From Tubiluchus corallicola (taxonomy: Eukaryota > Animalia > Priapulida): a stretch of 64,000 nucleotides of DNA. The stretch lies in NCBI GenBank assembly GCA_030141605.1, contig JAQGDQ010000858.1:1-64000 (forward strand). Direction: 5' to 3'. The translations under genes were made by a program, and so were the position numbers. Numbering within the stretch: the stretch's first letter is position 1; the number at the start of each line of letters is the position of its first letter. Positions 4,051 through 52,356 of this stretch are shown in pieces. The notes under the pieces were generated by a model. That model was not told where the DNA came from. It was given only the letters and a program-made list of their open reading frames with translations, and did not search any database.

Positions 4051-4177
4051 AGGCTTTTACAAAAAAAAGATCTTGCTTTAGGTTGGAGAAAAATTTGATG
4101 AAAATCACAAATTACTGATATAAATGAGGGTTTTGACAAAAGCATTAATAAAAAGATGAGCTTTGCAAATGCAGCCT
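4051..4177 (+). repeat. Palindromic dispersed element, copy R1 (short variant)
   Basis: AGGCTTTTACA...GATGAAAATCACAAATTACTGATATAAATGAGGGTTTTGACAAAAGCATTAATAAAAAGATGAGCTTTGCAAA; aligns by eye with the other copies. Confidence 0.88.
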
Positions 4178-4250
4178 TACAATAAAATTCGACCTTATAT
4201 GTATAAAGACTACCATTTAGCAATATAATTTGTATCTTGGAGGTTAAACT

Positions 4251-4388
4251 AGGCCTTTACAGGGCAAAAGACGGTATCATCTTGAGAAAAAATTCGATGA
4301 AAAATCGCAGCTTACTGATGTAAATAAAGATCGTGAAAGAGGTTTTGACTAAAATGTTAATAAAAAGATAAATTTTGCAAAAGACCTC
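4251..4388 (+). repeat. Palindromic dispersed element, copy R2
   Basis: AGGCCTTTACA...TTCGATGAAAAATCGCAGCTTACTGATGTAAATAAAGATCGTGAAAGAGGTTTTGAC...TTAATAAAAAGATAAATTTTGCAAAAGACCTC. Confidence 0.9.
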
Positions 4389-4437
4389 ACAACTGTCTTT
4401 ATTGAGACATGATTATATCGGTATAAATACTATTGGT

Positions 4438-4866
4438 TTGAATAAAAGTACAATACTACTTCCAGCCTTTTGTGGCTTTTTCTTATCTTTAGCTCTTCTT
4501 TCCAGTGCTCAAGTACCAGATCAAATAGTGAGGGGATTTAAAGCAGGAAATGCAAAAACTATTGCTCAATATTTCAATGAAAGCATTGAGCTTATGATTT
4601 CCGATACAGAAAATGTCTGCTCAAAAGCTCAGGCTGAGCAAATACTAAAAGGATTTTTTAATAAAAATATCCCTTCCGGCTTTAAAATAGTGCATCAGGG
4701 AGACGAAGAGCACACAAAATATGTTGTGGGAAATCTTCAGTCAGACCATAACCTATTTCAGGTGCAAATACTTCTGAAAAAGAAAGGAGGTAAACAAACA
4801 ATTCATAAACTTCGAATTGAAAAAAATAAAAACTCAAAAAAATATCGCCATGTCGAGATGGAATAA
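4438..4866 (+). CDS. DUF4783-like secreted protein
   Basis: Signal peptide ending SSA|Q, then FKAGNAKTIAQYFNESIEL and CSKAQAEQILKGFF. The ORF-track start (4375) lies inside repeat R2, so TTG 4438 is more plausible. Confidence 0.75.
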   Translation: MNKSTILLPAFCGFFLSLALLSSAQVPDQIVRGFKAGNAKTIAQYFNESIELMISDTENVCSKAQAEQILKGFFNKNIPSGFKIVHQGDEEHTKYVVGNLQSDHNLFQVQILLKKKGGKQTIHKLRIEKNKNSKKYRHVEME

Positions 4867-5851
4867 CCTAAAAGTAAAATCAACCAACTCAACAAATAGT
4901 ATAATAGAGAAAGCTAAAAAAATTACTATCCCTTTCTTTGACAATGTGCCACTTTATGATGTCTCTGTATTTTTCTGGAAAGGCATTATAAATGGCTCAA
5001 TTACAACAAGAGCGTCAGCCATTGCCTTCAACTTTATACTAGCTCTATTTCCGGCAACAATCTTCTTTTTTACCCTTATTCCCTACATTCCCATAGAGGA
5101 CTTTCAACAGGATCTATTTATGATAATAAATAACATAATGCCTAGTGATACTTCTCTAATTATTACTATAGAGGATGTTATTATGAGGCCACACGGTGGG
5201 CTTCTATCATTTGGATTCTTTGCAACGCTGATATTTGCGACAAACGGAGCAAGCTCAATAATATCTGCTTTTAACGCAACAACACATGCTATTGAAACCC
5301 GTTCATGGCTAAACCAAAGATTAGTAGCGCTGGTGCTTGTTCTTATAATATTCGGGTTGACAACACTGAGTGTTACCCTTATAGCAGTAAGCGAGACAGT
5401 AATGTATTTTTTGGTTAAAGAAAATATATTACAAATAAACCTAACTTACTATCTGCTTTCAATTGGAAAATGGATTGTAATTTGTGCTCTTTTATTTTTT
5501 GCCAACGCCTTTCTCTTTTATCTCGCTCCAGCAAAAAAATCAAAGTTTCGCTTTATCTCAGCCGGAGGCTCTTTAGCAACATCATTAACAATTATAACAT
5601 CTATCGGATTCTCTTTCTATATAAATAACTTTGGCAACTACAATAAACTGTATGGCTCTATTGGTACATTGCTTGTCGTAATGATGTGGCTGTACCTTAA
5701 CTCTCTGGCACAACTATTAGGCTTTGAATTAAATGCCAGTATTACATCCGCAAGAAGTAATAGTCATACCTTTTCAGCAAAGAAACATAGCCCCCCCTTA
5801 ATCGCAGTAAAACAGGAGAATAAAAATAATAACTACGGCATATCAATGTAG
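4850..5851 (+). CDS. YihY/virulence factor BrkB family membrane protein
   Basis: ITTRASAIAFNFILALFP, about 6 TM segments, YINNFGNYNKLYGSIGTLLVVMMWLY...LLGFELNASI. ATG 4850 preferred over TTG 4817. Confidence 0.9.
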   Translation: MSRWNNLKVKSTNSTNSIIEKAKKITIPFFDNVPLYDVSVFFWKGIINGSITTRASAIAFNFILALFPATIFFFTLIPYIPIEDFQQDLFMIINNIMPSDTSLIITIEDVIMRPHGGLLSFGFFATLIFATNGASSIISAFNATTHAIETRSWLNQRLVALVLVLIIFGLTTLSVTLIAVSETVMYFLVKENILQINLTYYLLSIGKWIVICALLFFANAFLFYLAPAKKSKFRFISAGGSLATSLTIITSIGFSFYINNFGNYNKLYGSIGTLLVVMMWLYLNSLAQLLGFELNASITSARSNSHTFSAKKHSPPLIAVKQENKNNNYGISM

Positions 5852-5853
5852 TG

Positions 5854-5994
5854 GAAACCTTTGCAGTGCAATAAAACCTGACACGGATTGAAGAGAAGCT
5901 CATTAATAAAACTGTAATTTACTAACGTAAATGAGGATTTTGAAGAAGGTTTTGGCGACAGTATCAATAAAAAGATGAACTTTGCAAAGCTTTC
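5854..5994 (+). repeat. Palindromic dispersed element, copy R3
   Basis: Ends GAAACCTTTGCA / TGCAAAGCTTTC (11/12 inverted match); core ATTTACTAACGTAAATGAGGATTTTGAAGAAGGTTTTGGC; starts 2 nt after the yihY stop. Confidence 0.9.
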
Positions 5995-6040
5995 TCAATC
6001 AAAAAACACTAGCTCTATTAAGAAGAGTTTAAAAACATCA

Positions 6041-6598: not shown

Positions 6599-6622
6599 AG
6601 CACTACAAACCATTAACTATCC

Positions 6623-7021: not shown

Positions 7022-7099
7022 ACTTACGCAAAGTAATACATGGCAGCAATACGCCCCCATTTCAAACCACCCATTCCCCTCTTATTACTAACTGGATAA

Positions 7100-7579: not shown

Positions 7580-7599
7580 TTTACCTGATTTAGATAGTT

Positions 7600-7636
7600 A
7601 AAAAAATAAGAAGAATCCCATGTGCCAGGACTCTTC
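7600..7636 (-). terminator. Intrinsic terminator-like hairpin in the greA leader
   Basis: Minus strand reads GAAGAGTCC-TGGCACATG-GGATTCTTC then TTATTTTTTT, between the promoter motif and the greA ATG. Confidence 0.65.
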
Positions 7637-7691: not shown

Positions 7692-7820
7692 TGAGACCTT
7701 TACAAAGCGAAATATTTTTGTTTATACAGAGGGGCCTTTTGATGAAAAGTCACAACTTACTGACATAAATGAAGATTTTGACAAAACATTAATAAAAAGA
7801 AGAGCCTCGCAAAGCTCTCA
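7692..7820 (+). repeat. Palindromic dispersed element, copy R4 (short variant)
   Basis: TGAGACCTTTACAAAGC...GATGAAAAGTCACAACTTACTGACATAAATGAAGATTTTGACAAAACATTAATAAAAAGAAGAGCCTCGCAAAGCTCTCA. Confidence 0.92.
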
Positions 7821-8873: not shown

Positions 8874-8878
8874 TATTA

Positions 8879-9012
8879 TGAAGCTATTGCGAAAATGAAA
8901 AATCTTGATTCAGTTTTAAAAAAAATCGATGAAAATCGCAATTTACTGATGTAAATGGGTGGGTGTTTCAAAGAAAGTATTAATAAAAAGATGAGCTTTT
9001 GCAAGACTCTCA
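8879..9012 (+). repeat. Palindromic dispersed element, copy R5
   Basis: TGAAGCTATTGCGA...TCGATGAAAATCGCAATTTACTGATGTAAATGGG...TATTAATAAAAAGATGAGCTTTTGCAAGACTCTCA; the terminal TCA is the ahcY stop codon. Confidence 0.9.
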
Positions 9013-10481: not shown

Positions 10482-10624
10482 TGAAGCTTTTGCATAGCGA
10501 AAGAAGCTGGTTCAGGATGAAGAAAAATTTGATAAAAAACCATAAACTACTGATATAAACGAGGATTTTGAAGAGGATCTAAACAAAAATACTAGTAAAA
10601 AGATAGGCCTTACAAAAGCATTCA
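10482..10624 (+). repeat. Palindromic dispersed element, copy R6
   Basis: TGAAGCTTTTGCA...GGTTCAGGATGAAGAAAAATTTGATAAAAAACCATAAACTACTGATATAAACGAGGATTTTGAAGAGGATCT...TACAAAAGCATTCA. Confidence 0.9.
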
Positions 10625-12912: not shown

Positions 12913-13047
12913 GAGAACTTTACAACAGGACAAACTTGATTCATACTGAAAAATCTATGATAAGCCACTCCTTACCTGCACAAATGAAGGTTTTGAAAAA
13001 GATTTTGAAAAAAATATTAATTAAAAAGATAAGCTTGACAATGCCCC
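12913..13047 (+). repeat. Palindromic dispersed element, copy R7 (degenerate)
   Basis: GAGAACTTTACA...AAATGAAGGTTTTGAAAAAGATTTTGAAAAAAATATTAATTAAAAAGATAAGCTTGACAATGCCCC. Confidence 0.8.
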
Positions 13048-15582: not shown

Positions 15583-15627
15583 CGAGGTCTTTACAAAGCA
15601 AAATAATTAATACTTGCAAAGATCTCG
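15583..15627. repeat. Ends-only 45 bp derivative of the palindromic element (R8)
   Basis: CGAGGTCTTTACAAAGC-AAAATAATTAATA-CTTGCAAAGATCTCG: both termini kept, core lost. Confidence 0.72.
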
Positions 15628-17530: not shown

Positions 17531-17667
17531 GGGACTTTTACAAAGCGAAAGATTTCGAGTTCAGGCTGAAAAGGCTCGATAAAAACCGCGGTTTAATAAT
17601 ATAAATGGGGGTTTTGAGAAGTGTTTTGACAAAAATATTAAAAAGAACATACTTTTGCTAAGGGCTC
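17531..17667 (+). repeat. Palindromic dispersed element, copy R9 (a left-end fragment follows at about 17691-17735)
   Basis: GGGACTTTTACAAAGCGAAAGATTTCGAGTTCAGGCTGAAAAGGCTCGATAAAAACCGCGGTTTAATAATATAAATGGGGGTTTTGAGAAGTGTTTTGAC...TTTTGCTAAGGGCTC. Confidence 0.9.
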
Positions 17668-17840
17668 AAATATTGCAAAAGCATTATACCGAAGTCTTTA
17701 CAAAACAACCTAATTGGGTCCAGGCTAAAATAACCCTCCATTAAGTATAAGTGTAACTGGCAGAGGTAAAGTCCACACAAAGTGTCTTATCCAGTCCCAT
17801 CTTAAACTATACAAATAAATATAATAAAGGGCGCAAACTA

Positions 17841-28620: not shown

Positions 28621-28635
28621 TTTGCAAAGGTCTCA
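28621..28635. repeat. Isolated terminus of the palindromic element family
   Basis: TTTGCAAAGGTCTCA matches the consensus end exactly; no recognisable core next to it. Confidence 0.55.
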
Positions 28636-28928
28636 TTTCTTAACTGAACATACCATGCAGATTATAAAAGCTCTGTTTTTCGAATAGCCGAATAGCGAGA
28701 AAGTATACGCTACTACAAAAACTATCCCAACACCTCTGTTTTAATTGAAAATATTTTGAGCAGAACAGACAATTACTACTTTTGTAGTTTGATTTCTATT
28801 ATAGAATATTACAACACATTTCTTAATGTTTCTAAGGGCTTGTTTTGATAGTATCGGCATACCATATATAATTGCTAAACTATTAAAACCAATCTATTAT
28901 TAACAAGCTCAAATAAGACAGATTGATT

Positions 28929-30062
28929 ATGAATGGGAGAAAAATATTTGTTATTGTCGGGCTAATTTTAATGCTTGGAGGGGCATTTATGGCTATGAAT
29001 ATATTGGCAGGAATGAAAAAAGAATTGCCAAAAAAACCGGAAATAGAAGCAAAGCGATATGTTAAAACACAATCGGTTGAATACACAAATCTAATATCAA
29101 CTGTTACTTCAACAGGGCGGGTCCTGGCAACAAACGAAGTTTTACTTGTTGCGGAAGCATCGGGCAGGATAGAGCCGGGCAATGTAGTATTAAAGAAGGG
29201 TGCTTCCTTTAAAAAGGGAGATATGGTATTGACAATTTATAAAAATGAAGCAGAAATGCTTTTAAAATCACGTAAAAGCCAATTCCTTAACATATTTGCA
29301 AATATGTTACCCGATATAAGGGTTGACTACCCAGAACACTATGATAGTTTCATAAGTTTTTTCAGGGCAATTGACCTTAACAAAGACTTGCCTCCACTTA
29401 CCCAAGATGTCGTTTCAGCCGATGAAAAACTGCGTATTTTTCTTGCAGGCAGAAATGTGCTATCAGAGTACTATTCGATAAGAAAAGACGAAATGGCACT
29501 TAAAAGATACTCCCTTTACGCCCCATTTAACGGAACATTCACACAAGTCAATTTTGAAGTTGGGGCCTATGTAAATACGGGAACACAGCTTGCAAAAATG
29601 ATCAGCACTGATAACCTTGAAGTTGAAGCACTAGTAGAAAATGACCAAAGCGAGTGGATTAAAATAGGCTCAAAAGCGTCTATTATCTCAGGAGGCAGAG
29701 GGAAAGAGTGGACAGGGAAAGTTGTAAGAAAATCCGGATTTGTCGACTTTAACACACAATCGCGCAGCATCTTTGTTAATATAGATCAGAAAGGACGCGA
29801 CAAGGTTATAGTTGGAGAATATTTGCTGGTAAGGTTTGACGGACAAAAAATTAAAGAGGCGATAGAGATACCGAGAAATGTAATATTCAATAGCAATGAA
29901 GTGTTTGTAGTTATTGACGGAAGATTAGAAAAATCTACTGTTAATATAATAAAAATTAATGAGAGAACAGCTATAGTAAATGGGCTTGAACCAGGGAGCG
30001 AACTGGTAGTAGAGCCACTGATAAATGTGAAAGAAAAAACAGTTGTTGAGACGATAAGATAA
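28929..30062 (+). CDS. RND efflux membrane fusion (periplasmic adaptor) protein
   Basis: N-terminal TM, AEASGRI, LYAPFNG, VGAYVNTGTQL, IEIPRNVI; first gene of an MFP-RND-TolC run. Confidence 0.9.
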   Translation: MNGRKIFVIVGLILMLGGAFMAMNILAGMKKELPKKPEIEAKRYVKTQSVEYTNLISTVTSTGRVLATNEVLLVAEASGRIEPGNVVLKKGASFKKGDMVLTIYKNEAEMLLKSRKSQFLNIFANMLPDIRVDYPEHYDSFISFFRAIDLNKDLPPLTQDVVSADEKLRIFLAGRNVLSEYYSIRKDEMALKRYSLYAPFNGTFTQVNFEVGAYVNTGTQLAKMISTDNLEVEALVENDQSEWIKIGSKASIISGGRGKEWTGKVVRKSGFVDFNTQSRSIFVNIDQKGRDKVIVGEYLLVRFDGQKIKEAIEIPRNVIFNSNEVFVVIDGRLEKSTVNIIKINERTAIVNGLEPGSELVVEPLINVKEKTVVETIR

Positions 30063-30100
30063 CTCTTGGGATAAATCACCATTAAAACTCTTTAAAAACA

Positions 30101-33100
30101 ATGAGAAAACTGGTATCACAGTTTGTTAAATATCCCTTCTATGCAAACCTTATTATTGCAGTGCTCCTGCTCGCTGGCGGGGTGAGCTTGTTCACAATAA
30201 AAAAATCATTCTTTCCTGAAAGAAGCTCACGATTCATTTTTGTTTCAGTATTTTATCCCGGAGCTTCCCCTACAGAGATGGAAGAAGGGATAACATCGCG
30301 CATTGAAGAAGCTACCCGTAGCATTGTAGGCATTAAAGAGATAACCTCCACATCATCAGAAGATGTCTCCTCTGTAAGAATAGAAATAACAGGAGAATAT
30401 GACATTAACGAAACGCTAATGGATGTAAAAAATGCTGTAGATGGGATCCCCTCTTTTCCATCTGCCGCAGAAAAACCTATTGTATACAAGCAGCGGACTA
30501 CCTCAACAGCGCTGTTTTTGTCACTTACGGGAGATGTAAGCCTGATGACCCTGAAAGAGTATGGGCAGCGTGTGGAAGAAGACCTCCTTACATCAGGAAT
30601 TGTTAGCCAGGTGAGACTAAGCGGGTTCCCTTCTCCCGAAATATCTGTTGAAGTACATGAAGAGGACCTGTTACGTTACGGAATAACATTTAGTGAAGTA
30701 TCGCAGGCTATCTCTGCAAATAATAGTGATATATCGGGAGGGCAAATCCGCTCTGATGAAGAAGAAATCTTAATACGCCTACGCTCAAGAACTACAGATC
30801 CTGACAAAATAGGTGATATTATTTTGAGAGGAAGTCCGGAAGGAGGATATGTGCGCATCAGAGATGTTGCAGAAATAAAAAAGAAATTTTCCGATGTACC
30901 ACAAAGAACATACAAGAAAGGAAAGCCTCTTATCGCTCTCACAATAAGTAAGCTCATCTCTGAAGACTTAGAAGGAATAACCAAGCTCTGTAAAAAATAC
31001 ACAGAAGAATTTAACGCTAACGACCACGGAGTTACCCTCGAGGTGGAATTTTCATATCTCGAAATACTGAAAAGCAGGCTGGATCTTTTGTTGAGCAATG
31101 GCTCTGTAGGATTGATACTGGTAGTTATCTCATTGGCAATGTTATTAAACTTCAGGTTGTCATTGTGGGTAGCATGGGGTATTCCTTCCTCTTTCTTGGC
31201 AATGTTTATTGTAGCAAACCAAATGGGACTAACGATAAATATGCTATCGTTGTTTGGGATGATCCTTGTAATTGGAGTGCTTGTTGATGACGGGGTTGTA
31301 ATAGGCGAAAACATATATCAGCATTTTGAAATGGGGAAAAGCCCTAAAAGGGCTGCTGTTGATGGAACAATGGAGGTTGCACCGGCAGTAATTACATCTA
31401 TCTCCACAACAATTGTTGCTTTTCTTCCTCTGCTATTTTTAACAGGAAGTATGGAGCGAATGAGAGAAATGGCATATGTCGTTATTCTAACCCTGTTTTT
31501 CTCTCTGATTGAAGCATTTTTTGTTTTGCCAGCCCACCTTGCCAGCCATGCTGTACTCAATCCGCGAATCCTTGAAAAAGACAGAACAGGGGTGAAAAAA
31601 TATATAGAAAGAGCTATTGAATGGCTGCGGGATAGAGTGTATTACAAAACATTAAAACTAATCCTCTGTTACCGGTACTTTGTCATCGGCATCCCTCTTG
31701 CCATGTTTTTGATAACAACTGGCTTTATGCAGTCTGGAAAAATAAAAACAACTTTTTTCCCCGCTATGGAGTTCGACAGTTTTAACCTGAATATTGCATT
31801 TGTCCCGGGATCAGGAGAAAAACGAACTACAGAATTTCTTAAAGAGTTTGAAAGAAAAGTATGGGAGGTCAACGAGGAGATGTTAAAAGAATACCCTAGC
31901 GCTTTTGATAATATCAAACCATCACTCTGGGATAAAATAACAGGTCGCGAAATAGATACATCGAGAACAATCATTAATGATATATTTCTCAATGTGGGAA
32001 CAGCATTTGACGGACTGGAAAAAGGCTCTCATGCTGGCAGCCTCTCCATATACCCTCGCAACCTGGAAGGAACAGGGATTAGCTCATTTGAAATAGTTAA
32101 CAGGGTCAGGGAAAAAATTGGAGAAGTGCCGGAAGCTAAAAAATTTACTGTTGCCGGAAGGGTCATGTTCGGTATGCCTGTATCTATATCTCTACTTGGT
32201 AGAAATATAGAAGAGTTGGAAAATGCGCGGGACTTTATGTTTGAAAAGCTGGGGGAGATGCCGCAACTAAAAGATATTGTTGACAACAATGCGCTTGGGA
32301 AACAGGAAGTTCGCCTGGAGCTAAAACCCAAAGCCTACATGCTGGGGCTCAATAAATCAATGATTGTCAATCAAGTAAGACAAGGATTTTATGGAGAGCA
32401 GGCACAAAGGCTACAAGAGGGGCGTGATGAATTAAGGGTGTGGGTACGTTATCCTAGCGAAGGACGTGAACAGATAGGACAACTGGAGCGAATGAAAATA
32501 AAAACTCCCGCAGGAGAATTTCCGCTTATTGAGTTAGCCAGATACAGCTTGGAGCGTGGCCCAGTTGCAATACAGAGATACAACGGCATGAGGGAAATAC
32601 GTGTAGAAGCAGATATCGTGGACAGAGATGAGTCTGTCCCCGAGCTTATCGCTCAGATAGAGAAACAAATTATACCCGAGTTAAAAGTAAAATATCCGGG
32701 GGTAAGCTTAGAGAGCCAAGGACAACAAAAAGAGAGCAAAGAGTCTGGAAAAATTATATCAAACTACTACTCAATCGCCTTCTTCATAATTATAATGATA
32801 TTGATGATACACTTCAAATCATTTGAACAGCCTCTACTGGTGCTGTGTATGATACCACTATCTGTATTGGGAGCCGTCTGGGGGCATGGAGTTCACGGGA
32901 AGGTGGTGTCAATGCTTTCCCTTTATGGCATAATAGCTCTTTCTGGAGTGATTATAAACGATGCCGTGGTGTTTCTGTCAAGATATAATGACCTGATAGT
33001 ACGCAAAGTAAAAGTCAAGGACGCAATAATCGCAGCTGGAAAGTCTAGACTGCGCCCTATACTTCTGACCACTATTACCACTTCCATAGGTCTGTTTCCC

Positions 33101-33412
33101 CTGATCCTTGAAAAAAGCTTTCAGGCACAGTTTCTCATTCCTATGGCTATCTCACTTGTATACGGTGTTGCATTTGGAACACTGTTTATACTTATCTTTT
33201 TCCCCGCCACTATCTTAATACTCAACGATATAAGAGTTTGCAGAAAACAACTGGCAAGGGCTATAAAAATGTACTGGAGGGGGGAGAATCCTGATTGGGC
33301 ACAACCTGAAAGAGAAGAGGTAGAGATCGCTATGATACATAGTAAGCGTAAAATTGAGGATGTAAAAGAACCAGAAGTGAATATGATGGTTAGCGATCTT
33401 GATTTAACATAG
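30101..33412 (+). CDS. AcrB/AcrD/AcrF family RND transporter
   Basis: 1103 aa; YPGASPTEMEEGI, IGVLVDDGVVIGENI, GVIINDAVV, SRLRPILLTTITT, PMAISLVYG. Confidence 0.95.
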   Translation: MRKLVSQFVKYPFYANLIIAVLLLAGGVSLFTIKKSFFPERSSRFIFVSVFYPGASPTEMEEGITSRIEEATRSIVGIKEITSTSSEDVSSVRIEITGEYDINETLMDVKNAVDGIPSFPSAAEKPIVYKQRTTSTALFLSLTGDVSLMTLKEYGQRVEEDLLTSGIVSQVRLSGFPSPEISVEVHEEDLLRYGITFSEVSQAISANNSDISGGQIRSDEEEILIRLRSRTTDPDKIGDIILRGSPEGGYVRIRDVAEIKKKFSDVPQRTYKKGKPLIALTISKLISEDLEGITKLCKKYTEEFNANDHGVTLEVEFSYLEILKSRLDLLLSNGSVGLILVVISLAMLLNFRLSLWVAWGIPSSFLAMFIVANQMGLTINMLSLFGMILVIGVLVDDGVVIGENIYQHFEMGKSPKRAAVDGTMEVAPAVITSISTTIVAFLPLLFLTGSMERMREMAYVVILTLFFSLIEAFFVLPAHLASHAVLNPRILEKDRTGVKKYIERAIEWLRDRVYYKTLKLILCYRYFVIGIPLAMFLITTGFMQSGKIKTTFFPAMEFDSFNLNIAFVPGSGEKRTTEFLKEFERKVWEVNEEMLKEYPSAFDNIKPSLWDKITGREIDTSRTIINDIFLNVGTAFDGLEKGSHAGSLSIYPRNLEGTGISSFEIVNRVREKIGEVPEAKKFTVAGRVMFGMPVSISLLGRNIEELENARDFMFEKLGEMPQLKDIVDNNALGKQEVRLELKPKAYMLGLNKSMIVNQVRQGFYGEQAQRLQEGRDELRVWVRYPSEGREQIGQLERMKIKTPAGEFPLIELARYSLERGPVAIQRYNGMREIRVEADIVDRDESVPELIAQIEKQIIPELKVKYPGVSLESQGQQKESKESGKIISNYYSIAFFIIIMILMIHFKSFEQPLLVLCMIPLSVLGAVWGHGVHGKVVSMLSLYGIIALSGVIINDAVVFLSRYNDLIVRKVKVKDAIIAAGKSRLRPILLTTITTSIGLFPLILEKSFQAQFLIPMAISLVYGVAFGTLFILIFFPATILILNDIRVCRKQLARAIKMYWRGENPDWAQPEREEVEIAMIHSKRKIEDVKEPEVNMMVSDLDLT

Positions 33413-33417
33413 ACAAA

Positions 33418-34746
33418 ATGAATACACAAAGGATGATCAAGATTATATTAGTTGGGACACTGTCTCTCTTTACTCTACTATCTCCCAAATCAGAGGTAAA
33501 AGGGCAACAGCCTCTTAACTTTTCTGATGCAATATCAAAAGCATTAAAAAACAACTATGATATAGTCATTGTAAAAGGGAATAAAGAAATAGCTTCACTA
33601 AACAACAGGTGGGGAACAGCAGGAAGGTATCCTGATATTAACTTCTCTGCTAATTCAAATAATGAATGGGGATCTAATGAACAGAACGACTATACACAAA
33701 ATACATTGAGAGGAGGTGTTACTCTTGACTGGATGCTTTTTAACGGCTTCTCTGTCAATATATCCAAAGCAAAACTGAATGACCTGGAGCAACTCTCTAA
33801 AGGCAACACATCAGTAATTGTTGAAGAGACTGTCCACGCGGTAACACTTGGATACAACCTTGTGCTTCTTGAACAGCAAAGGCTAAATGTACTAAAAGCT
33901 CTGATGAAGCTATCGGAAGACCGCTACAACTATGAAAGAGACAAAAAAGAGATTGGCAGCTCCGTTACATTTGATGTCTTACAGGCGCAAAATGCTTACT
34001 TAGCAGATAAAGCAAACCTCCTCGCACAAGAGGTAATGCTAAAAAATGCTATCAGGGATTTGAGTTACATTATGGGAGAAAAAGAGGCCGATACATGGGT
34101 TTTTCCTGATTCACTTGAACCGGTTATTAACAACTATATAATTGCCGATTTACAACAAAAAATGTACTCTAATAATAATACTCTAAAGAACCAGTTTATT
34201 AATCAAAGTCTGATGGAGCGAGAAACTGCATTAGCAAAAAGCAATTTCTATCCATCGCTAAGATTGTCCACAGGTATAGAAGGGAGCAGTAGCAAAATAA
34301 AATATGACAACGGGAACAATATAAATAGCGACTTGTGGAAATATTACGGCAACCTTACACTCAGCTATAACCTGTACAGTGGCGGGGTAAGAAGCAGAGC
34401 AGTGCAAATTGCTAAAATAGGTGAAGGCTTAGAGCAGGTTAAAACCGAATCACTAAGGCACTTACTAACAAATCAGCTGTTAAATATTTACGAGCTGTAT
34501 GAGTTGAGGAAAGAACTGCTGGGTGTAGCTAATGAAGCGTATGCAGCTGCTAAGCTTAACATGCAAATTGCAGAGGATAAATTTCGCAACGGATCAATTA
34601 ACTCTTTCAACTATCGCGATGTACAACTAATCTACCTGAATGCAGCTCTGAGTAGATTGCAAACAATATATAACCTTATAGAATCAGACATTTCACTTAT
34701 AAGGATCACGGGAGGTATTATCATGGAGTATGCTCCCGATATCTAA
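33418..34746 (+). CDS. TolC family outer membrane efflux protein
   Basis: Signal peptide, ALKNNYDI, duplicated YP..N/S and L..G motifs; follows the RND gene. Confidence 0.9.
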   Translation: MNTQRMIKIILVGTLSLFTLLSPKSEVKGQQPLNFSDAISKALKNNYDIVIVKGNKEIASLNNRWGTAGRYPDINFSANSNNEWGSNEQNDYTQNTLRGGVTLDWMLFNGFSVNISKAKLNDLEQLSKGNTSVIVEETVHAVTLGYNLVLLEQQRLNVLKALMKLSEDRYNYERDKKEIGSSVTFDVLQAQNAYLADKANLLAQEVMLKNAIRDLSYIMGEKEADTWVFPDSLEPVINNYIIADLQQKMYSNNNTLKNQFINQSLMERETALAKSNFYPSLRLSTGIEGSSSKIKYDNGNNINSDLWKYYGNLTLSYNLYSGGVRSRAVQIAKIGEGLEQVKTESLRHLLTNQLLNIYELYELRKELLGVANEAYAAAKLNMQIAEDKFRNGSINSFNYRDVQLIYLNAALSRLQTIYNLIESDISLIRITGGIIMEYAPDI

Positions 34747-38193: not shown

Positions 38194-38540
38194 AATTTTC
38201 ATTTATTATTCACAACAAGTTGTTTATACGCAGCTTGGGAGTTTGAAGCACCTACCTGTCACCCCGTTATATTTTTTATTAAGCATGCTCATTTTCAACA
38301 TAGCACAATCTGCCAAATAATCTTATTAATTAGCTAAATATTAACGCCTATTTCGCTTATTTTATTGTTTATTAACACTTGTAGTTCATGTTAAATTGCT
38401 AGGCGGCACCATAAAATTCACACCAAATTGTTATGCTTGTGACTTGTACAGTAAAAGGGAGGGTTTTGTGCCCTTAGCAAATTTGATGGCAATACCTCTC
38501 GATGCCTTCAGGTTCAGAAAGAAAGAGAGCGACTATAAAG

Positions 38541-39798
38541 GGACTGTCTCAAAAGTGATAGCCTCTTTTGTGTTTATTGAGTTACTAACAATTAATTGCC
38601 TGTAAATCAAAAAAAGAAAGCCTTAATGCTTCCTTAAATTCATAGATTCTTGCAACTTGCGTGTGATTTTCAATAAGTTAAAGGTGCGATTAAAAAATGA
38701 TTCTTCAAAGCAGCTAATGCTACTTCCCCCCCAGCCTTGATGATTTAATTGAAGACAAGAACCATTCGGTATATGCAGTCAATAAGGTGGCTAATAAGAT
38801 CAATATTGAACCTCTTATCAAAACATATAAAGGAGAAGGCACCTCAAGTTATCACCTTATCACCCAAGAATGCTTCTAAAAGTTATCATTTAATGTTTAC
38901 TTGAATAATGCTTACAGTACGAGAGGCATTGAGTATCAATTAAAAGGCAATATTTATTTTATGTGGTTAAGTGGCGAGTCAACCTGATCATAATACTATT
39001 TTTCGTTAGGAGTAAAGGGCTAAAAGGGGAAATTAAAAAGATGCTTGCTCTAGTTGTTGCTTTGCTGATTAAAGGAGGGTTGGTTAGCATAAAAGAGGCC
39101 TTTATTGATGGGACCAAAATTAAAGCCAATGCCAACCACTACGCTTTCGTATGGGGCAAACCCATAAATACAAACAAAGGAAAAATGAAAGACCAGCTTG
39201 AAACTCTGTAGTCATATGTAGAACAGGTTTGTAAAAAAGAAAGCTCACTGCTTGAAAACCTGATTTTAGGGAATTATCACCAGAAAAAGTTGATGCCACT
39301 ATCCAAACAATAAACAAAGCACTATCAAGCAGAACACGCCACTACACCAAGTAGTTAACCGCAATAATCGTCCAGTAGGATGGGGTCTCATAAGGCAAAA
39401 GGCAACCATATAATTTCCGTAAGCCATAACCTAATCAGTCATAAAAGTAAGGTTCGAAAGCTTTTAACAAGTGAAGAAGAAGTAAAGTGCAGGAAGCAAA
39501 GAGCCTGGGCTGTTAAAGGTGCTTTTGGAATATTAAAGCATAATAAAGGCTTTAAAAGATTTATGTTCAAAGGCCTTGATAGTGTTGAGATTGAAGCAGG
39601 GGTATTACTAATTGCTCACAATATTGCTAAAGTGAGTGCCTGGATAAACTCTTATTCAATTCATTATCTTAAAAAGATGACCTAATTTACGATTAAAAAG
39701 TTTTCAAAAAAGTATTCCTATTACCAAATTCAATTACTCATAATAATTGTTTAAAAAGTTGACAAAAAACTGTCCCAAAGTTACTTTTGAGATAGCTC
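38541..39798 (+). mobile_element. Degenerate, internally deleted IS1182-family element
   Basis: Fragments QLMLLPP, GTSSYHPRMLLK, FMWLSG..PDHNTI, FIDGTKIKANAN..FVWGK, FGILKHNKGFKRF..G..V..E....IAHN with many stops and frameshifts. Ends GGACTGTCTCAAAAGT and ACTTTTGAGATAGCTC match 13/16 as inverted repeats. Confidence 0.85.
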
Positions 39799-39849
39799 TC
39801 ATAGAAATAAACTTAACCTAGATGCACAACAGCTGTTGAAAAATATTTT

Positions 39850-39979
39850 GAGACCTTTACAAGATTAAAAAAAACCTGGTTCAAATTGAGTGAAAACTCA
39901 AAAAAAATCGCAGTTTACTGATCTAAAATAAATGCTTTGGCAAAAACATTTAATAAAAAATGAGTTTTGCAAAGGCTCC
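39850..39979 (+). repeat. Palindromic dispersed element, copy R11
   Basis: GAGACCTTTACA...CTGGTTCAAATTGA...AAAATCGCAGTTTACTGATCTAAA...TTAATAAAAAATGAGTTTTGCAAAGGCTCC. Confidence 0.9.
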
Positions 39980-41090: not shown

Positions 41091-41121
41091 ATAGAGGGTG
41101 TCTCAAAAGGGCACCCTCTAT
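41091..41121. terminator. Stem-loop downstream of mdh (TGTCTCAAAAG palindrome family)
   Basis: ATAGAGGGTGTC-TCAAAAG-GGCACCCTCTAT, 12 bp stem; no clear U-tract. Confidence 0.55.
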
Positions 41122-41317: not shown

Positions 41318-41412
41318 GATAAAAAATCTCAGCTTACTAATAGTAAACAAGGATCTAGAAGAGGGTTTTGACAAAATTTTAATAAATAAATATCAGCCTT
41401 GCAAAACTCTCA
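41318..41412 (+). repeat. Palindromic dispersed element, right two-thirds (R12)
   Basis: GATAAAAAATCTCAGCTTACTAATAGTAAACAAGGATCTAGAAGAGGGTTTTGACAAAATTTTAATAAA...CCTTGCAAAACTCTCA. Confidence 0.85.
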
Positions 41413-46190: not shown

Positions 46191-46705
46191 GAATATACCT
46201 GATAGGATATATGGGGTGTGGAAAAACATTCATAGGAGCAAGCATTGCCCGACTGCTTAACTTTGAATTTGTAGACCTGGATGAATATATCGAAAAGCGT
46301 CAGCTATGCACTATCTCAAAAATATTTGAGGAGGCAGGAGAGAAGAAATTCCGGGAAATTGAGAATAAAGCACTACAAAAAATGACTAAGCTTGAAAATG
46401 TAGTGGTTGCAACAGGAGGAGGAACCCCCTGCTTCTATGATAATATGGACATAATGAATGGCTCCGGACTCACCATCTACATTGCTGTTAACGCCTATAT
46501 CCTTGCAAACAGACTGGCGAATTCAGAAATAGAACGCCCTCTCATAAAAGGGAAATCACACAAAAACCTTATAAAATTTATTGAAAAAACCATTAAAACG
46601 AGGGAGCCTTTTTATGACCGTGCTAAAATTAAAATATCCGGAAGTGACAACCTAACTGCTGAAGAGGTTATAGACAAAATAAACGAACATGCCTCCGGGC
46701 TATAA
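46187..46705 (+). CDS. aroK: Shikimate kinase
   Basis: Walker A GYMGCGKT, DLD, IF...GE..FR..E, ATGGG, RPL, R...Y. Confidence 0.95.
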   Translation: MRIYLIGYMGCGKTFIGASIARLLNFEFVDLDEYIEKRQLCTISKIFEEAGEKKFREIENKALQKMTKLENVVVATGGGTPCFYDNMDIMNGSGLTIYIAVNAYILANRLANSEIERPLIKGKSHKNLIKFIEKTIKTREPFYDRAKIKISGSDNLTAEEVIDKINEHASGL

Positions 46706-46892
46706 AAAATTACAAAAAGCAAGGGTGCCGCACTCAATCTAATTTGCATCCCTGGCAGCATTTATAACCAGGTAAGCTCAGCCCTCAAAAGCTTTCGCCT
46801 ATTGGCTCTTGCAAAGTAAAAGATGAGCTTCACAAAAACCTCAACTCCCTCCTTCATGGAGATCAAAACGAATCTTGCCAGACACACTCTTT
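46302..46892 (+). repeat. 591 bp direct repeat, left copy (IS1634 target duplication)
   Basis: Identical by eye to 48540-49130; ends exactly at the IS left inverted repeat. Confidence 0.95.
46804..46842 (+). repeat. Internally deleted derivative of the palindromic element (R13; duplicated at 49042-49080)
   Basis: GGCTCTTGCAAAG joined to TAAAAGATGAGCTTCACAAAAACCTC. Confidence 0.6.
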
Positions 46893-48539
46893 CCTGTTTT
46901 GTGCATTGCAGCACCCAAGTTTATAATTTCATATTTAACAACTTTTTTTGCATTTCAGTTGGCTGTAATATTTTTGTTCTGACTTGTTTCGATTTGGGCA
47001 GAGTGTATTGCAGCTGCCTGATCTGCCGGATTTGTTCCAAGGCTTTTTCAGCAGAGATATCAATATTATTTGCCTTCAATAACCTTTCCAGCTCTTTGTA
47101 AATGGCATAGGCTGTGAAACAAATACAGATATGGGCTTCAATGCGTTCTTTTAAGCGGTGATAAACTGGCCGTATTCGTAAATCAGTTTTTGATATACGA
47201 AAAGCTTTTTCCACTTGCCACAACTGACTATAATTCCCGATAACATCTTTTCTCGGTAAATGGGTATTGGTTACATAACCCTTCAACCCATCCCAAACTC
47301 TATCTGACTGGAACTTATCGTAGTCGATTTTAACGGCAATCTCCCCCGACAGATTCAGATATTTATTATACCCGCGATTATTTATGTGATTCTTTGTTAG
47401 CTTGCCGGAAGCAACACGTTTTTCAAGTCTTTTTAAGCCCTTCTCTCTGTTTTTTTATCGTTGAAGGCTCTTTTTTCTGAGAAGCTGATAATCAACCTTC
47501 CATTCTTGTTTTTCAACTCAACTGGCTTGTTTTCTTTAATATCAAGAGCTATAATTTTTTCTTTTATTTTTTGACTTTCATTCTTTATCCGTCCTCCAAG
47601 TATGTACTCGTATTTGTTTTCAATCAAGGCATTTATGTTCTTCTGCGAGAGTAAAGCTGCATCGGCAACTACAATAGGCCTTTCGATATTAAATTTATTT
47701 TGAAAGGCTTCCAGAACAGGGATTAGTGTTTTTGTTTCAGAGGTGTTTCCCTCGAATATTTGATAGCCAATCGGGTATCCATATTTACCCACCAGTAAAC
47801 CTATCATTATTTGCGGTTGTTGATGCTTGCCATCTTTGTTGAATCCGGGAATACGGTAGTCATCTTCTTCTGATGCCTCAAAATACAATGTGGTCATATC
47901 ATAAAATGCGACACTTATCTTTCCTTTTAGTAGCTTCCTGGTGTGCTTAAAGGTAAGTTGTTCAATTTGTGGCTTTAAACTTGTATTTAGCTCGTCAAGG
48001 AAACGATAAATAGTGTGTACGCTAACATCTGTATTCAGGTGCTGTCTAAAATAGTCAACGGTTTTTAATTTGCTTCCCGGGTACACTAACCGACATAATA
48101 CCAGGTTGCGAAAATAATTGCAGCACCCATCATCCGGAAAGTTAAAGACTTGATAAATTTTGCCTAAAATTAATTCACTTCCTACAACTTGTAAATGATT
48201 GTTTGCAATGCTGTCCACAAAGTTTTCAACCACCAAATCATCGTGTTCAACAAAAAGCGATTGCATGCCCCTAAGCCGCTCTATCTCTGTGTTGGCAAGC
48301 AATAAAAGCAATTCTTCTTCCCGCTTTGTTTTTGCGCAACCTACGGTTTTTACAACCTTATATTTACCATGATTTTTTGAGATTATCTGTACACTCACAG
48401 AACCACTCCCGATTCTTATTTTTTCGGACAAACATGCATAAAATTAAGCATGCAGCACCCAAAATGCAAATTTGAAATTCCTATCTTGCTGATAATCAAT
48501 AGTGCATTCTTGGGGCGTCGTTGTGGTGCACAAAACAGG
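46893..48539 (-). mobile_element. IS1634-family insertion sequence, 1,647 bp
   Basis: Perfect 13 bp terminal inverted repeats CCTGTTTTGTGCA / TGCACAAAACAGG; DDE transposase inside; long flanking direct repeat. Confidence 0.93.
46921..48435 (-). pseudogene. IS1634-family transposase with two frameshifts
   Basis: MFVRKNKNR / SGSVSVQII... FYDMTTLYFE...GFNKDGK...QIFEGN...VVADAALLS...FNDKK / NREKGLKRL...WDGLKGYVTN...YSQLWQVEKAFRISKTDLRIRPVYH..KERIEAHICICF. Confidence 0.88.
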
Positions 48540-48943
48540 AGCTATGCACTATCTCAAAAATATTTGAGGAGGCAGGAGAGAAGAAATTCCGGGAAATTGA
48601 GAATAAAGCACTACAAAAAATGACTAAGCTTGAAAATGTAGTGGTTGCAACAGGAGGAGGAACCCCCTGCTTCTATGATAATATGGACATAATGAATGGC
48701 TCCGGACTCACCATCTACATTGCTGTTAACGCCTATATCCTTGCAAACAGACTGGCGAATTCAGAAATAGAACGCCCTCTCATAAAAGGGAAATCACACA
48801 AAAACCTTATAAAATTTATTGAAAAAACCATTAAAACGAGGGAGCCTTTTTATGACCGTGCTAAAATTAAAATATCCGGAAGTGACAACCTAACTGCTGA
48901 AGAGGTTATAGACAAAATAAACGAACATGCCTCCGGGCTATAA
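48540..48943 (+). pseudogene. aroK: 5'-truncated duplicate of aroK
   Basis: Identical to aroK from LCTISK onward; lacks the Walker A motif; the only upstream start is an IS-derived TTG at 48521. Confidence 0.9.
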
Positions 48944-49130
48944 AAAATTACAAAAAGCAAGGGTGCCGCACTCAATCTAATTTGCATCCCTGGCAGCATT
49001 TATAACCAGGTAAGCTCAGCCCTCAAAAGCTTTCGCCTATTGGCTCTTGCAAAGTAAAAGATGAGCTTCACAAAAACCTCAACTCCCTCCTTCATGGAGA
49101 TCAAAACGAATCTTGCCAGACACACTCTTT
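48540..49130 (+). repeat. 591 bp direct repeat, right copy
   Basis: Begins immediately after the IS right inverted repeat; identical to 46302-46892. Confidence 0.95.
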
Positions 49131-49227
49131 GAAACAGTATCAATTATATTTTGTGAAACACAAACACAACAATCTTAATAAATAAAATTCGGTCTTTAGA
49201 GCTTTTTTTGAAAGAAGATTAAAAATC

Positions 49228-50688
49228 TTATAATCTAGACCTATGTGCTTCAAAAAAGAATACTACTCCCAAAAACACAATCAAAAAAGAGGACTTAACA
49301 GCATAATGAAGAATAGTACATGGCAAGCTGATACTACTTCCGGCAAAGAATAGCACCATAGCAATTAATATGTATGCAGCTAACCTTTTGATATCATAAC
49401 TAATGGGGAAATGCTTTTTGCCCTGATAATAGGACATAGCAGACATTAAAATAGGTGTAATACAAAACGCAACTACAGATGCCATATACCCTAAAACAGG
49501 AATAAAAACAACATTTACACCTACTGTGATAAAAGCCCCTATAACTGAAAACTTCGCCCCATACCTGGTTTTATCTGTAAGTTTGTACCAGACGGACAAC
49601 GTATAATAAATTCCCATAAAAAAATTGCCCATCAATATCCATGGTAAGATATGTAGCCCGCCATGGTACTCCCTACCAATAAATACTTTGATAATATCAA
49701 TATAAAGAGTCACCACAAGGAAGATCACCAGACCTAATATAACAAAATACTTCATTATATCGACATACATCTTTTTGGACTCTTCCCCCCTATGTTGAGA
49801 AAAGAAGAATGGCTCAAAAGAGTAACGGAAAGCCTGAATAAAAAGGCTCATTAGCACGCCAAGTTTAAAATTTGCCGAATAAACACCTAGGTCTCCCATA
49901 GGATTAGTAGTATCACGAAGCAGCTTTGGGAGCAGTATCTTCTCTATATTTTGATTCACCATTCCGGCAATACCCACAACCAGGAGGGGCCAGCTGTAGT
50001 TAAGCATCTTTAGTAATACTTCCCAGCTAAAAGAGAAACTCCTGACTATCAGATCAGGAATAAAAAGCACCAGTATAACTGCTGAAGCTATCAAATTTGA
50101 AATAAAGACATACCCTATTCCAATCTCCTCTCTATAAATAAAATTGATAAATGAATAATCACCTGCAGCAGCTATCTTAGGGCAGAAATAAATAAAAAAG
50201 AGATTTAAAAACACTACCAGCCCTATACCTACAAACTTATAAATAGAAAACCTTACAGCTCTCCCCTGCAACCTCAACCTTGCATAAGGAATAGATGTAA
50301 AAGCATCAAGCGCAACAGTTATCCCCATCAACACAATATACTCAGGATGATTACCATACCCCATCCATGAGGATATATTCCCGGCAAAAGCACAAACAAC
50401 TACTATAAAAGACAGAGAAGTTACAAAAAGAGACATTAAAGTTGTCGGGTAAACGCTACCCTTCCCACCACCTTTTGCGGCATAGCGGAAATAAGAGGTC
50501 TCCATGCCATAAGTGAGTAAAACAATAAAAAACGCAACATAGGCGTAAACATTACTGACTATACCATACTCCTCTGTGGCAAACTGACGGGTATATAATG
50601 GCACAAGCCACCAATTAAGAAACCTGCCTACAATACTTGGAACACCGTATATAGCAGTCTCCCCGGCCAATTTCTTTAATCCTTTCAA
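49228..50688 (-). CDS. Polysaccharide flippase (Wzx/MOP superfamily)
   Basis: MKGLKKLAGETAIYG, LTYGMETSYFR, QAFRYSFEPFFF, LSVWYKLTDKT; about 12-14 TM segments. Confidence 0.88.
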   Translation of the reverse strand: MKGLKKLAGETAIYGVPSIVGRFLNWWLVPLYTRQFATEEYGIVSNVYAYVAFFIVLLTYGMETSYFRYAAKGGGKGSVYPTTLMSLFVTSLSFIVVVCAFAGNISSWMGYGNHPEYIVLMGITVALDAFTSIPYARLRLQGRAVRFSIYKFVGIGLVVFLNLFFIYFCPKIAAAGDYSFINFIYREEIGIGYVFISNLIASAVILVLFIPDLIVRSFSFSWEVLLKMLNYSWPLLVVGIAGMVNQNIEKILLPKLLRDTTNPMGDLGVYSANFKLGVLMSLFIQAFRYSFEPFFFSQHRGEESKKMYVDIMKYFVILGLVIFLVVTLYIDIIKVFIGREYHGGLHILPWILMGNFFMGIYYTLSVWYKLTDKTRYGAKFSVIGAFITVGVNVVFIPVLGYMASVVAFCITPILMSAMSYYQGKKHFPISYDIKRLAAYILIAMVLFFAGSSISLPCTILHYAVKSSFLIVFLGVVFFFEAHRSRL

Positions 50689-50716
50689 AATCTGATTCCT
50701 TTTACATTACACTTTA

Positions 50717-50724
50717 CAAATATA
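50717..50724 (-). promoter_or_regulatory. -7 promoter element for the flippase gene
   Basis: Minus strand TATATTTG. Confidence 0.6.
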
Positions 50725-50796
50725 GCGCAAAGTTTAATCGACAAACGCGATTTACCAGATAACTGGGCATAAAAAAACAAATAGCATAAAGTTTTA

Positions 50797-50804
50797 TATC
50801 TTTG
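50797..50804 (+). promoter_or_regulatory. -7 promoter element for the glutaminyl cyclase gene
   Basis: TATCTTTG ending 4 nt before the ATG at 50809. Confidence 0.55.
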
Positions 50805-50808
50805 AAAT

Positions 50809-51894
50809 ATGAGAGGTGTTATATTATTTTTACACATAATTCTACTTATTGCCGTTTTATTGCACGGCAGCTGCGCCACACAATCAAAGCGACCAAGAAA
50901 GCCTGTAACTGCTATAAAAGTAAAACCTTCTGGTCAAAAACCTATTGTAGGTGTAGAACTGAATTTATCTACAAAAACGAAACTAAGAGGCGGTACGCTT
51001 AAAGAGGTTGAAGTATTTGTAAATGGGGAAAGCGTATTAAAATCAAAAGAACTGGAGAACTCAGTAAAGATAGAGACAGAGTCTTACAAGCCGGGGATTC
51101 TTTCTATCAAGGTGGTTGCAGAAAGCAGCGATGGAATAAAAGGGGAAAACTACAAAAGTGTTGAACTACTTTCCAATTTAACCCCTATAAAGTACAACTT
51201 TGAGGTTGTCAACTCTTTTCAGCACAATACCGACTTCTTCACACAAGGGCTAGTAGTCCACAATGGAATACTCTATGAAGGAACAGGAAGCGGTAATGAG
51301 CAGAAAATATCAGGTATTTATAAAGTAGAACTGGAAACAGGAAAAACTTTAAAGAAGTTGGAGCTTGACAAAAAGTACTGGGGGGAAGGCATTGACATCC
51401 TTAATGGGAAAATATATCAGCTTACATACAAATCTCAAAAAGGCTTTGTATACGACCTGAAAACATTTGAAAAACTTGACTCATGGAGCTATAAAACAAA
51501 AGAGGGATGGGGATTGACAAACGATGGTAAAAACCTGATTATGAGTGATGGAAGTGAAATATTGCGATTTGTAGATCCCGAGTCACTCAGGGAGCTATAT
51601 ACAATTTCGGTATACAACCATAAAGGCCCTGTAAAATACATTAATGAGCTTGAATACATAAAAGGGGAAATATGGGCCAATGTATGGACTACAAATATGA
51701 TTATCAGGATTGCCCCTGAAAGTGGAAAGGTTCTTGGGGAAATTGACCTCAGTAGTTTAGGGGTAATGTTTCAGGGAGGAGAAAAACATATTGATGTACT
51801 GAATGGCATTGCCTGGGACAAGGAAAAGGACAGGATTTTTGTAACCGGTAAGCTTTGGCCAAGAATGTTCGAAATAAAAGTGAGCGCAAACTGA
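50809..51894 (+). CDS. Glutaminyl-peptide cyclotransferase (beta-propeller type), lipoprotein
   Basis: Lipobox LHGSC; FTQGL, LYEGTG, WGEGI, EGWGLT, MSDGS, INELEY, VLNGIAWD, VTGKLWP. Confidence 0.93.
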   Translation: MRGVILFLHIILLIAVLLHGSCATQSKRPRKPVTAIKVKPSGQKPIVGVELNLSTKTKLRGGTLKEVEVFVNGESVLKSKELENSVKIETESYKPGILSIKVVAESSDGIKGENYKSVELLSNLTPIKYNFEVVNSFQHNTDFFTQGLVVHNGILYEGTGSGNEQKISGIYKVELETGKTLKKLELDKKYWGEGIDILNGKIYQLTYKSQKGFVYDLKTFEKLDSWSYKTKEGWGLTNDGKNLIMSDGSEILRFVDPESLRELYTISVYNHKGPVKYINELEYIKGEIWANVWTTNMIIRIAPESGKVLGEIDLSSLGVMFQGGEKHIDVLNGIAWDKEKDRIFVTGKLWPRMFEIKVSAN

Positions 51895-52028
51895 CTACAT
51901 TAACAAACACAGGCTGGCAGGAAAGTCCATTACAAATCACTAATACTTTGACACTATCCATAGCCTTATAAGTCGAATACATGAAACATTACGAGTTGAG
52001 CATTAATAAAATTATACACTAACATACC

Positions 52029-52168
52029 AAAACCTTTGCAAGAAAAAAGATCTTTGTTCATCTTGAGGAAAAAATGATAGCAAGCCGTGATTTACTCAAT
52101 GCAAATGAGGGCTTTAAAGAGGATTCTAACAAAAATGTTAATAACAAGATAAGTTTTACAAAGCCCTC
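52029..52168 (+). repeat. Palindromic dispersed element, copy R15
   Basis: AAAACCTTTGCAAG...GATTTACTCAATGCAAATGAGGGCTTTAAAGAGGATTCTAACAAAAATGTTAATAACAAGATAAGTTTTACAAAGCCCTC. Confidence 0.88.
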
Positions 52169-52204
52169 TCCTCCTGTTTAGCACAATACAAACCCCAATT
52201 TCAT

Positions 52205-52212
52205 TATATTTG
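52205..52212 (+). promoter_or_regulatory. -7 promoter element, likely for purL
   Basis: TATATTTG followed by CA, between R15 and R16. Confidence 0.6.
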
Positions 52213-52219
52213 CAGAATC

Positions 52220-52356
52220 AAGACCTTTGCAGGGTGAAAGATTTTAGCTCAGGTTGAAAAAATTCGATAAAAAGCTGCAGTTTACTAATGTAAATGAGGA
52301 TTTAAAGAGAATTTTGACGAGAATATTAATAACAATGTAAGCTTTGCAAAGGTCTT
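52220..52356 (+). repeat. Palindromic dispersed element, copy R16 (best-preserved ends)
   Basis: Perfect 12 bp ends AAGACCTTTGCA / TGCAAAGGTCTT; core TTCGATAAAAAGCTGCAGTTTACTAATGTAAATGAGGATTTAAAGAGAATTTTGACG. Confidence 0.93.

What the first reader, a model, noticed from the sequence alone, without database searches (positions are those of the whole stretch)
4051..52356. All copies of the element point the same way, independent of gene direction: possible replichore-polarised system
Seen: all 11 near-complete copies and the orientable fragments read in the + direction. They sit between divergent genes (R1/R2), convergent genes (R5), +/+ genes (R3, R15/R16) and -/- genes (R4, R6, R7, R9). I found no reverse copy. 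With random orientation, 11 of 11 has probability 2 x 0.5^11, about 0.001 (tandem pairs may not be independent). A simple DDE MITE with symmetric ends would not necessarily show this. Established: IS200/IS605 HUH transposases and integron attC sites act on one folded single strand at the replication fork and show replication-linked orientation bias; Ter, KOPS and Chi sites are also polar. Inference: the element spreads through, or acts on, one specific strand at the fork.
Basis: partly seen in the sequence, partly recalled or inferred. Interest (0 to 1): 0.8.

Follow-up and report, generated by a model that had tools for sequence, protein, structure and literature searches.

The report
Mini-transposons lined up with DNA replication
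An uncultured Bacteroidales bacterium carries old copies of a 140-base mini-transposon that all point the same way in this 64-kb stretch regardless of neighbouring genes, likely because copies with their stronger hairpin strand on the exposed side of the replication fork are lost over time.

Summary
Observation confirmed: 11 full copies and 1 partial lie on +, and no significant reverse copy was found (10 independent sites, p=0.002). Orientation ignores gene direction. The window is one replichore; the element reads on the C-rich strand. On other contigs of the same bacterium, 11 copy pairs share a strand and 1 does not.

The proposed vehicle (HUH or attC system) is not supported. The element is an IS5-subgroup MITE with GAGACCTTTGCA inverted ends and 5-bp target duplications, around an ERIC-like asymmetric hairpin. 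It decays neutrally, with no conserved polar motif.

Young relatives elsewhere lean the same way but weakly: 85 of 143 in a complete genome, flipping between replichores (p 0.02-0.09 by boundary), and 118 of 195 pooled. Full IS5 elements show no detectable polarity. This old family is about 97% polarised (CI 83-99%).

Best reading (0.40, inferred): strand-dependent loss builds polarity with age. Main rival (0.30): oriented insertion at the fork. The ori/ter flip could not be tested here because no genome is held.

The parts
4050..4175 (+). MITE copy (tandem pair with 4250)
4250..4388 (+). MITE copy
5854..5996 (+). MITE copy between brkB-like gene and ruvC (+/+)
7693..7819 (+). MITE copy with exact 5-bp target duplication, between -/- genes
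8880..9011 (+). MITE copy between convergent genes
10483..10623 (+). MITE copy between ahcY and alpha-L-fucosidase (-/-)
12913..13047 (+). MITE copy, most decayed (68% to consensus), -/-
15584..15626 (+). 43-bp internally deleted copy with both ends; orientation read from its left end only
17531..17667 (+). MITE copy (-/-)
17691..17741 (+). possible left-end fragment (E 0.82, not significant)
28621..28634 (.). lone perfect inverted end; orientation and family unassigned
39850..39979 (+). MITE copy, target duplication 4 of 5
41318..41411 (+). partial copy (right two-thirds) between mdh and parE
   Evidence: E 1.1e-11
46815..46842 (+). possible right-end fragment (E 0.44), repeated at 49053-49080 by a larger duplication
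52029..52168 (+). MITE copy (tandem pair with 52220)
52220..52356 (+). best-preserved MITE copy, target duplication 4 of 5; E 1.2e-9 to the foreign family-1 profile

Best explanation
The element is a non-autonomous IS5-type mini-transposon (MITE) whose copies here all place one strand on the C-rich strand of a single replichore, and this polarity likely built up after insertion because copies with the stronger hairpin strand on the single-stranded lagging-strand template would be deleted more often. Shown: inverted ends, 5-bp target duplications, neutral decay, one replichore in the window, independence from gene direction, and a predicted folding advantage of the same strand in young relatives. 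Inferred: mobilisation in trans by an IS5 transposase; that the other contigs follow the replichores; that the G-rich strand is leading (general rule); and strand-dependent hairpin-stimulated deletion between the short duplications.
For: Ends match ISNme1/ISPg1/BrickBuilt, IS5 family (PMC4596501 Table 2); two IS5 transposases over cut-off sit between such ends. Target duplication: 63 of 123 metagenome elements exact at 5 bp, 32 of 43 in G960, window 28 of 55 positions, permutation p=0.002. Fourfold GC skew is -0.07 in + genes and +0.32 in - genes, same sign in both halves. The window-plus (A) strand folds more stably as DNA in 45 of 46, 40 of 40 and 43 of 43 young copies, by 4-6 kcal/mol, and in 9 of 11 window copies; it lies on the inferred leading-strand template, the side chromosomal integrons use for their folding strand (PMC5371416 section 6). 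Bias is weak in young copies (85 of 143 at about 2% divergence; pooled 118 of 195, p=0.004) and strong in this family at about 22% divergence (ML 0.97, CI 0.83-0.99); 10 of 10 has p=0.007 and 11 of 12 same-strand pairs p=0.005 under the young bias. A constant-rate extrapolation from G960 gives 98% (two points only).
Against: No age gradient inside G960: 9 of 16, 19 of 32 and 1 of 3 by divergence class (narrow age range). The window consensus folds only 0.9 kcal/mol better on A, and as RNA only 6 of 11 copies favour A. E. coli ERIC copies have a larger folding asymmetry yet split only 12 to 7, p=0.36. Core carriers with other ends split 17 of 31. G999 alone (19 of 32, p=0.38) and the metagenome loci alone (14 of 20, p=0.12) are not significant, and G960 falls to p=0.09 if the origin is set at 230 kb. 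Gomez 2014 argue IS orientation bias is intrinsic to transposition, not post-insertion selection (PMC3971601 section 13). One of 12 contig pairs is on opposite strands.
Confidence: 0.4

Rival explanations
1. Oriented insertion: this host's IS5 transposase docked on the replication fork (for example through the sliding clamp) and inserted the MITE one way round from the start.
For: IS5a elements are biased in 11% of chromosomes, in either direction (PMC3971601 section 12). Very young copies already show about 60% bias. It needs no large loss of copies.
Against: The MITE's ends are near-identical, and the same paper says symmetric transpososomes give no bias (passage). Full IS5 elements show no polarity: 15 of 38 neighbours share a strand in G954, best two-switch fit p=0.75, and 5 versus 5 in G960 (my count); these samples cannot exclude a 60% bias. 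No biased IS family was found in Bacteroidetes (table S6 not opened).
Confidence: 0.3
2. A modest bias near 60%, or a few related insertion events, looks extreme because this window was picked for the pattern.
For: The scan selects striking windows. Tandem pairs are related. Pneumococcal repeats show 61-63% strand bias (PMC3049150). Three joint rows were not shown; if all were opposite, the count is 11 to 4, p=0.12.
Against: Pairs on other contigs were not part of the selection and give 11 to 1 (9 to 1 using only sides of 26 nt or more). Identity does not fall with distance (Mantel rho 0.11). The longest same-strand run among 143 G960 copies is 7.
Confidence: 0.13
3. The copies were recruited as polar chromosome sites (KOPS-, Ter- or Chi-like) and are kept in orientation by selection on a protein-binding motif.
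For: Polarity is independent of genes. The core hairpin recurs in MITEs with unrelated ends.
Against: Invariant columns match neutral expectation: C 1 vs 0.8, G 1 vs 0.4, T 6 vs 6.6, A 13 vs 9.1. The intact element was not found in 301 family genomes.
Confidence: 0.07
4. One reading: the element moves as a folded single strand through an HUH (IS200/IS605, RAYT) or integron-type enzyme at the fork.
For: It is a long imperfect hairpin with a preferred folding strand.
Against: It has IS5-type inverted ends and 5-bp target duplications, which HUH elements do not make (own knowledge). No HUH or tyrosine recombinase among 44 window ORFs scanned.
Confidence: 0.04

Closest known systems
BrickBuilt and MITEPgRS/464 of Porphyromonas gingivalis; ISPg1/ISPg9; ISNme1 (PMC4596501, passages and Table 2 read)
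   Same: Same GAGACCTTTGCA-type inverted ends, IS5 family, Bacteroidales host, intergenic, many decayed copies.
   Different: Those MITEs carry minisatellites. The passages read say nothing on replication polarity. This element is 140 bp with a hairpin core.
Replication-linked IS orientation bias (Gomez et al. 2014, PMC3971601; sections 12 and 13 and passages read)
   Same: Orientation tied to GC-skew sign and independent of genes; IS5a biased in some chromosomes.
   Different: Reported for transposase-bearing IS, mostly in Firmicutes, none in Bacteroidetes; MITEs are not mentioned in the main text (0 occurrences).
ERIC/IRU 127-bp repeat (PMC2229807 passages; E. coli aceF-lpd copy)
   Same: Three motifs in the same order and similar spacing as in family-1 elements (alignment); long hairpin with the same favoured strand.
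   Different: TA ends rather than IS5 ends; family profiles give no significant hit; only 12 to 7 strand split in K-12.
attC sites of sedentary chromosomal integrons (PMC5371416, abstract and section 6 read)
   Same: The folding strand sits on the leading-strand template (25 of 30 integrons), which limits loss.
   Different: attC sites are arrays recombined by an integrase; these are dispersed DDE insertions.
Pneumococcal BOX, RUP and SPRITE repeats (PMC3049150 passages)
   Same: MITE-like repeats with 61-63% on one replication strand, like the young relatives here.
   Different: Explained there as mirroring gene-strand bias; here orientation ignores gene direction and reaches about 97%.

Membership tests
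IS5-subgroup MITE | Terminal inverted repeats matching an autonomous IS5 element | tested here: met
IS5-subgroup MITE | Short target-site duplication of fixed length | tested here: met
   5 bp: window p=0.002; 63 of 123 relatives exact; 32 of 43
IS5-subgroup MITE | Short, non-coding, multicopy, intergenic | tested here: met
   copies on other contigs
IS5-subgroup MITE | Cognate transposase in the same genome | not testable with these tools
   No genome held; window transposase remnants are IS1182- and IS1634-like
IS200/IS605 or RAYT/REP (HUH) substrate | No inverted ends and no target duplication (own knowledge) | tested here: not met
IS200/IS605 or RAYT/REP (HUH) substrate | Associated Y1/HUH enzyme | tested here: inconclusive
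   None among 44 window ORFs; rest of genome unavailable
Integron attC | Array of gene cassettes with an integrase | tested here: not met
   Copies are dispersed between housekeeping genes
ERIC/IRU | Sequence homology to ERIC | tested here: inconclusive
   Motif order shared by eye; no significant profile hit; no blastn match in E. coli genomes
ERIC/IRU | TA termini, 7-bp inverted repeat | tested here: not met
   PMC2229807 Table 1
Polar replichore site (KOPS/Ter/Chi) | Short motif conserved above background | tested here: not met
   (11 copies only)
Replichore-polarised element | Orientation flips at ori and ter | tested here: inconclusive
   Not testable in this genome; weak flip in relative G960, Fisher p 0.02-0.04 for five boundary choices, binomial p 0.09 for a sixth

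The most novel reading that the evidence does not exclude
Replication sieves dispersed hairpin MITEs by strand: a widespread ERIC-like hairpin core starts near 60% bias and is driven towards full replichore polarity as wrongly oriented copies are deleted, so polarity dates a MITE burst and measures lagging-strand hairpin loss in natural chromosomes.
Probability: 0.3. Interest if true: 0.7.

Novelty: new variant of a known kind. Interest (0 to 1): 0.45.

Why it matters
Replication-linked orientation is known for full IS elements and is usually put down to insertion; none was reported for Bacteroidetes. Near-complete polarity in a symmetric-ended, non-autonomous element would show either that an IS5 transpososome can orient such a substrate or that replication removes copies by strand. 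Both are testable with young copies in cultured Porphyromonadaceae. If the bias proves modest genome-wide, this is an ordinary decayed MITE.

Tried and rejected
No own genome is held. A sequence-only covariance model found nothing in 5 relatives, but only 150 candidates per genome were scored. The end pattern was at chance in 201 family genomes; the paired-end pattern hit 0 of 301; the core pattern hit 1 of 351 Bacteroidota and 7 of 251 Bacteroidales. A two-block pattern from the window copies found 0 metagenome matches. Rfam has no family for the window copies at gathering score; 12 young loci gave 4 matches far below gathering scores. Plasmid blastn with a window copy gave chance hits. No RNA holder was listed. 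Whole metagenome contigs were not available, so only 20-kb loci were used. Promoter scan: 45 versus 36 +/- 7 expected, nothing recurrent in the copies. Ascertainment by a self-trained profile was rejected. Transcription-driven orientation was rejected (G960 +/+ 7 vs 6, -/- 5 vs 5). Local hopping was rejected apart from the two tandem pairs. A family-wide strict rule was rejected: neighbours 9 same and 7 opposite in metagenome loci, 72 of 142 in G960, 3 and 3 on a Halomonas replicon with one skew sign. Literature searches for MITE polarity: 0 papers; 39 papers with 3 of 4 terms, 15 listed; 4; most subscription papers, including Wilson and Sharp 2006 on ERIC, were not searchable.
Full report
Host and setting. 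The genes are those of a Bacteroidales bacterium. The nearest matches are Prolixibacteraceae: GreA 73% (which scanned 2 of 64 parts of the collection) and PpiD 55% to Prolixibacter sp. SD074. No genome is held. Earlier AI notes on the same assembly describe animal DNA (unchecked), so this is probably a co-assembled bacterium. The window appears to cover most of a 74.6-kb contig of run X1, which may be its source.

Observation. A profile of the 11 copies, run on both strands, finds 11 full copies and one partial, all on +; leave-one-out E values are 1.7e-15 or better and no minus hit beats E 0.92. A profile from unrelated metagenome elements hits 6 copies, all +. An orientation-blind scan of paired ends reveals no extra intergenic element. 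The two tandem pairs are among the three most similar of 55 pairs, so I count 10 independent sites, p=0.002. The element reads sense at 3 +/+ sites and antisense at 4 -/- sites, so transcription does not set it. One lone perfect end at 28621-28634 is unassigned.

Replichore. Fourfold-site GC skew over 40 genes is -0.07 for + genes and +0.32 for - genes (Fisher 3e-21), with the same sign in both halves. By the general rule that the leading strand is G-rich (own knowledge), the minus strand is leading. The element's plus reading, called A here, is then on the lagging strand, which is the leading-strand template.

Beyond the window. Laying run contigs at 80% likeness shows the element on many other contigs of similar depth. 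Joints between two copies on one contig report relative strand. I told contigs apart by depth, dropped 4 rows from the source contig, 1 row whose end is not in a copy, 1 row of run X3 and 1 probable repeat, leaving 11 same-strand and 1 opposite (p=0.006); with sides of 26 nt or more it is 9 to 1. Three rows were not shown; the worst case is 11 to 4 (p=0.12). Window and joints together give a favoured fraction of 0.97 (CI 0.83-0.99; worst case 0.89, 0.72-0.96). The skew of those contigs is unknown, so a flip at ori and ter is untested.

Identity. The ends are GAGACCTTTGCA inverted repeats. A metagenome scan for such paired ends returned 121 loci (8 of 64 parts scanned) with 124-147 bp elements; 63 of 123 with flanks have an exact 5-bp duplication and other lengths are at background. 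Window flanks match at 28 of 55 positions, p=0.002, one copy exactly. The same ends bound IS5 transposases in L153 and L279 and are listed for ISNme1, ISPg1 and BrickBuilt (PMC4596501). The interior is homologous to family 1 of the metagenome elements (E 1.2e-9). It is an IS5-subgroup MITE. Copies are 68-86% identical to their consensus, transitions dominate, and invariant columns match neutral expectation. The core recurs inside other ends and resembles E. coli ERIC by motif order, without a significant profile hit.

Relatives. In complete genome G960, 143 young copies put A on the C-rich strand in 84-86 cases for five boundary choices (p 0.02-0.04, Fisher flip p 0.02-0.04) and 82 for a sixth (p 0.09); arms came from 40 sampled 20-kb regions with weak skew. 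G999 gives 19 of 32 with 4 of 36 ambiguous, or 20 of 36 by contig. Metagenome loci give 14 of 20 by corrected skew or 20 of 33 by raw skew, from loci of 8 kb or more among 119 after dropping 2 overlaps. Pooled: 118 of 195 (p=0.004), or 122 of 212 conservatively (p=0.03). Against a general rule: neighbours are unsorted in these sets, 39 full IS5 copies in G954 are unsorted, and core carriers with other ends split 17 of 31 (E. coli ori and ter recalled).

Mechanism. Young copies are long imperfect hairpins whose A strand is predicted to fold 4-6 kcal/mol better than its complement in 128 of 129 cases. Hairpins form readily on the lagging-strand template (PMC12708500 passages), and chromosomal integrons keep their folding strand off it. 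The bias here has that direction and is larger in the old family than in young ones. I therefore favour strand-dependent loss (0.40, inferred) over oriented insertion (0.30). The case is thin: no age gradient within G960, only 0.9 kcal/mol asymmetry in the window consensus, ERIC in E. coli at 12 to 7, and Gomez 2014 argue against post-insertion selection for full IS.

Novelty. Replication-linked IS orientation is known, with no biased family in Bacteroidetes (supplementary table S6 not opened and may bear on this). About 60% strand bias is known for pneumococcal repeats. My searches found no report of near-complete polarity in a bacterial MITE or of this element; the scan's own index had none. 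PMC2718517 (passages) treats only flanking-gene orientation. Verdict: new variant of a known kind, interest 0.45.

Noticed in passing
window 38530-39800: Decayed IS1182-like element with inverted ends; a similar short end-like hairpin lies near 41093-41120.
   Followed up: partly
window 46302-49120: Broken IS1634 transposase flanked by an identical duplication of at least 300 bp, 2238 bp apart, that repeats part of aroK.
   Followed up: partly
window 28923-34746: The HlyD/AcrB/TolC operon lacks the negative fourfold GC skew of most other + genes (0.20, 0.02, 0.02), possibly a later acquisition or inversion.
   Followed up: no
G960 (loci L395-L434): A young 187-bp MITE with at least 143 copies, IS5-type ends, 5-bp duplications and the same core, in a complete Porphyromonadaceae genome; a relative has 36 matches in G999.
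   Followed up: yes
L351, L352-L353, L435-L445, L356: The same asymmetric hairpin core occurs inside MITEs with at least three other kinds of ends, in Halomonas and several Bacteroidota, and resembles the ERIC centre. Why it is shared is unexplained.
   Followed up: partly
L104-L224: About 970 estimated metagenome stretches hold 124-147 bp MITEs with these ends; they fall into 20 interior clusters, several with unrelated palindromic cargo.
   Followed up: partly
W01 (NZ_CP040452.1): A 1.83-Mb record labelled plasmid has negative GC skew in all 17 sampled regions, as if it were one chromosome arm.
   Followed up: no
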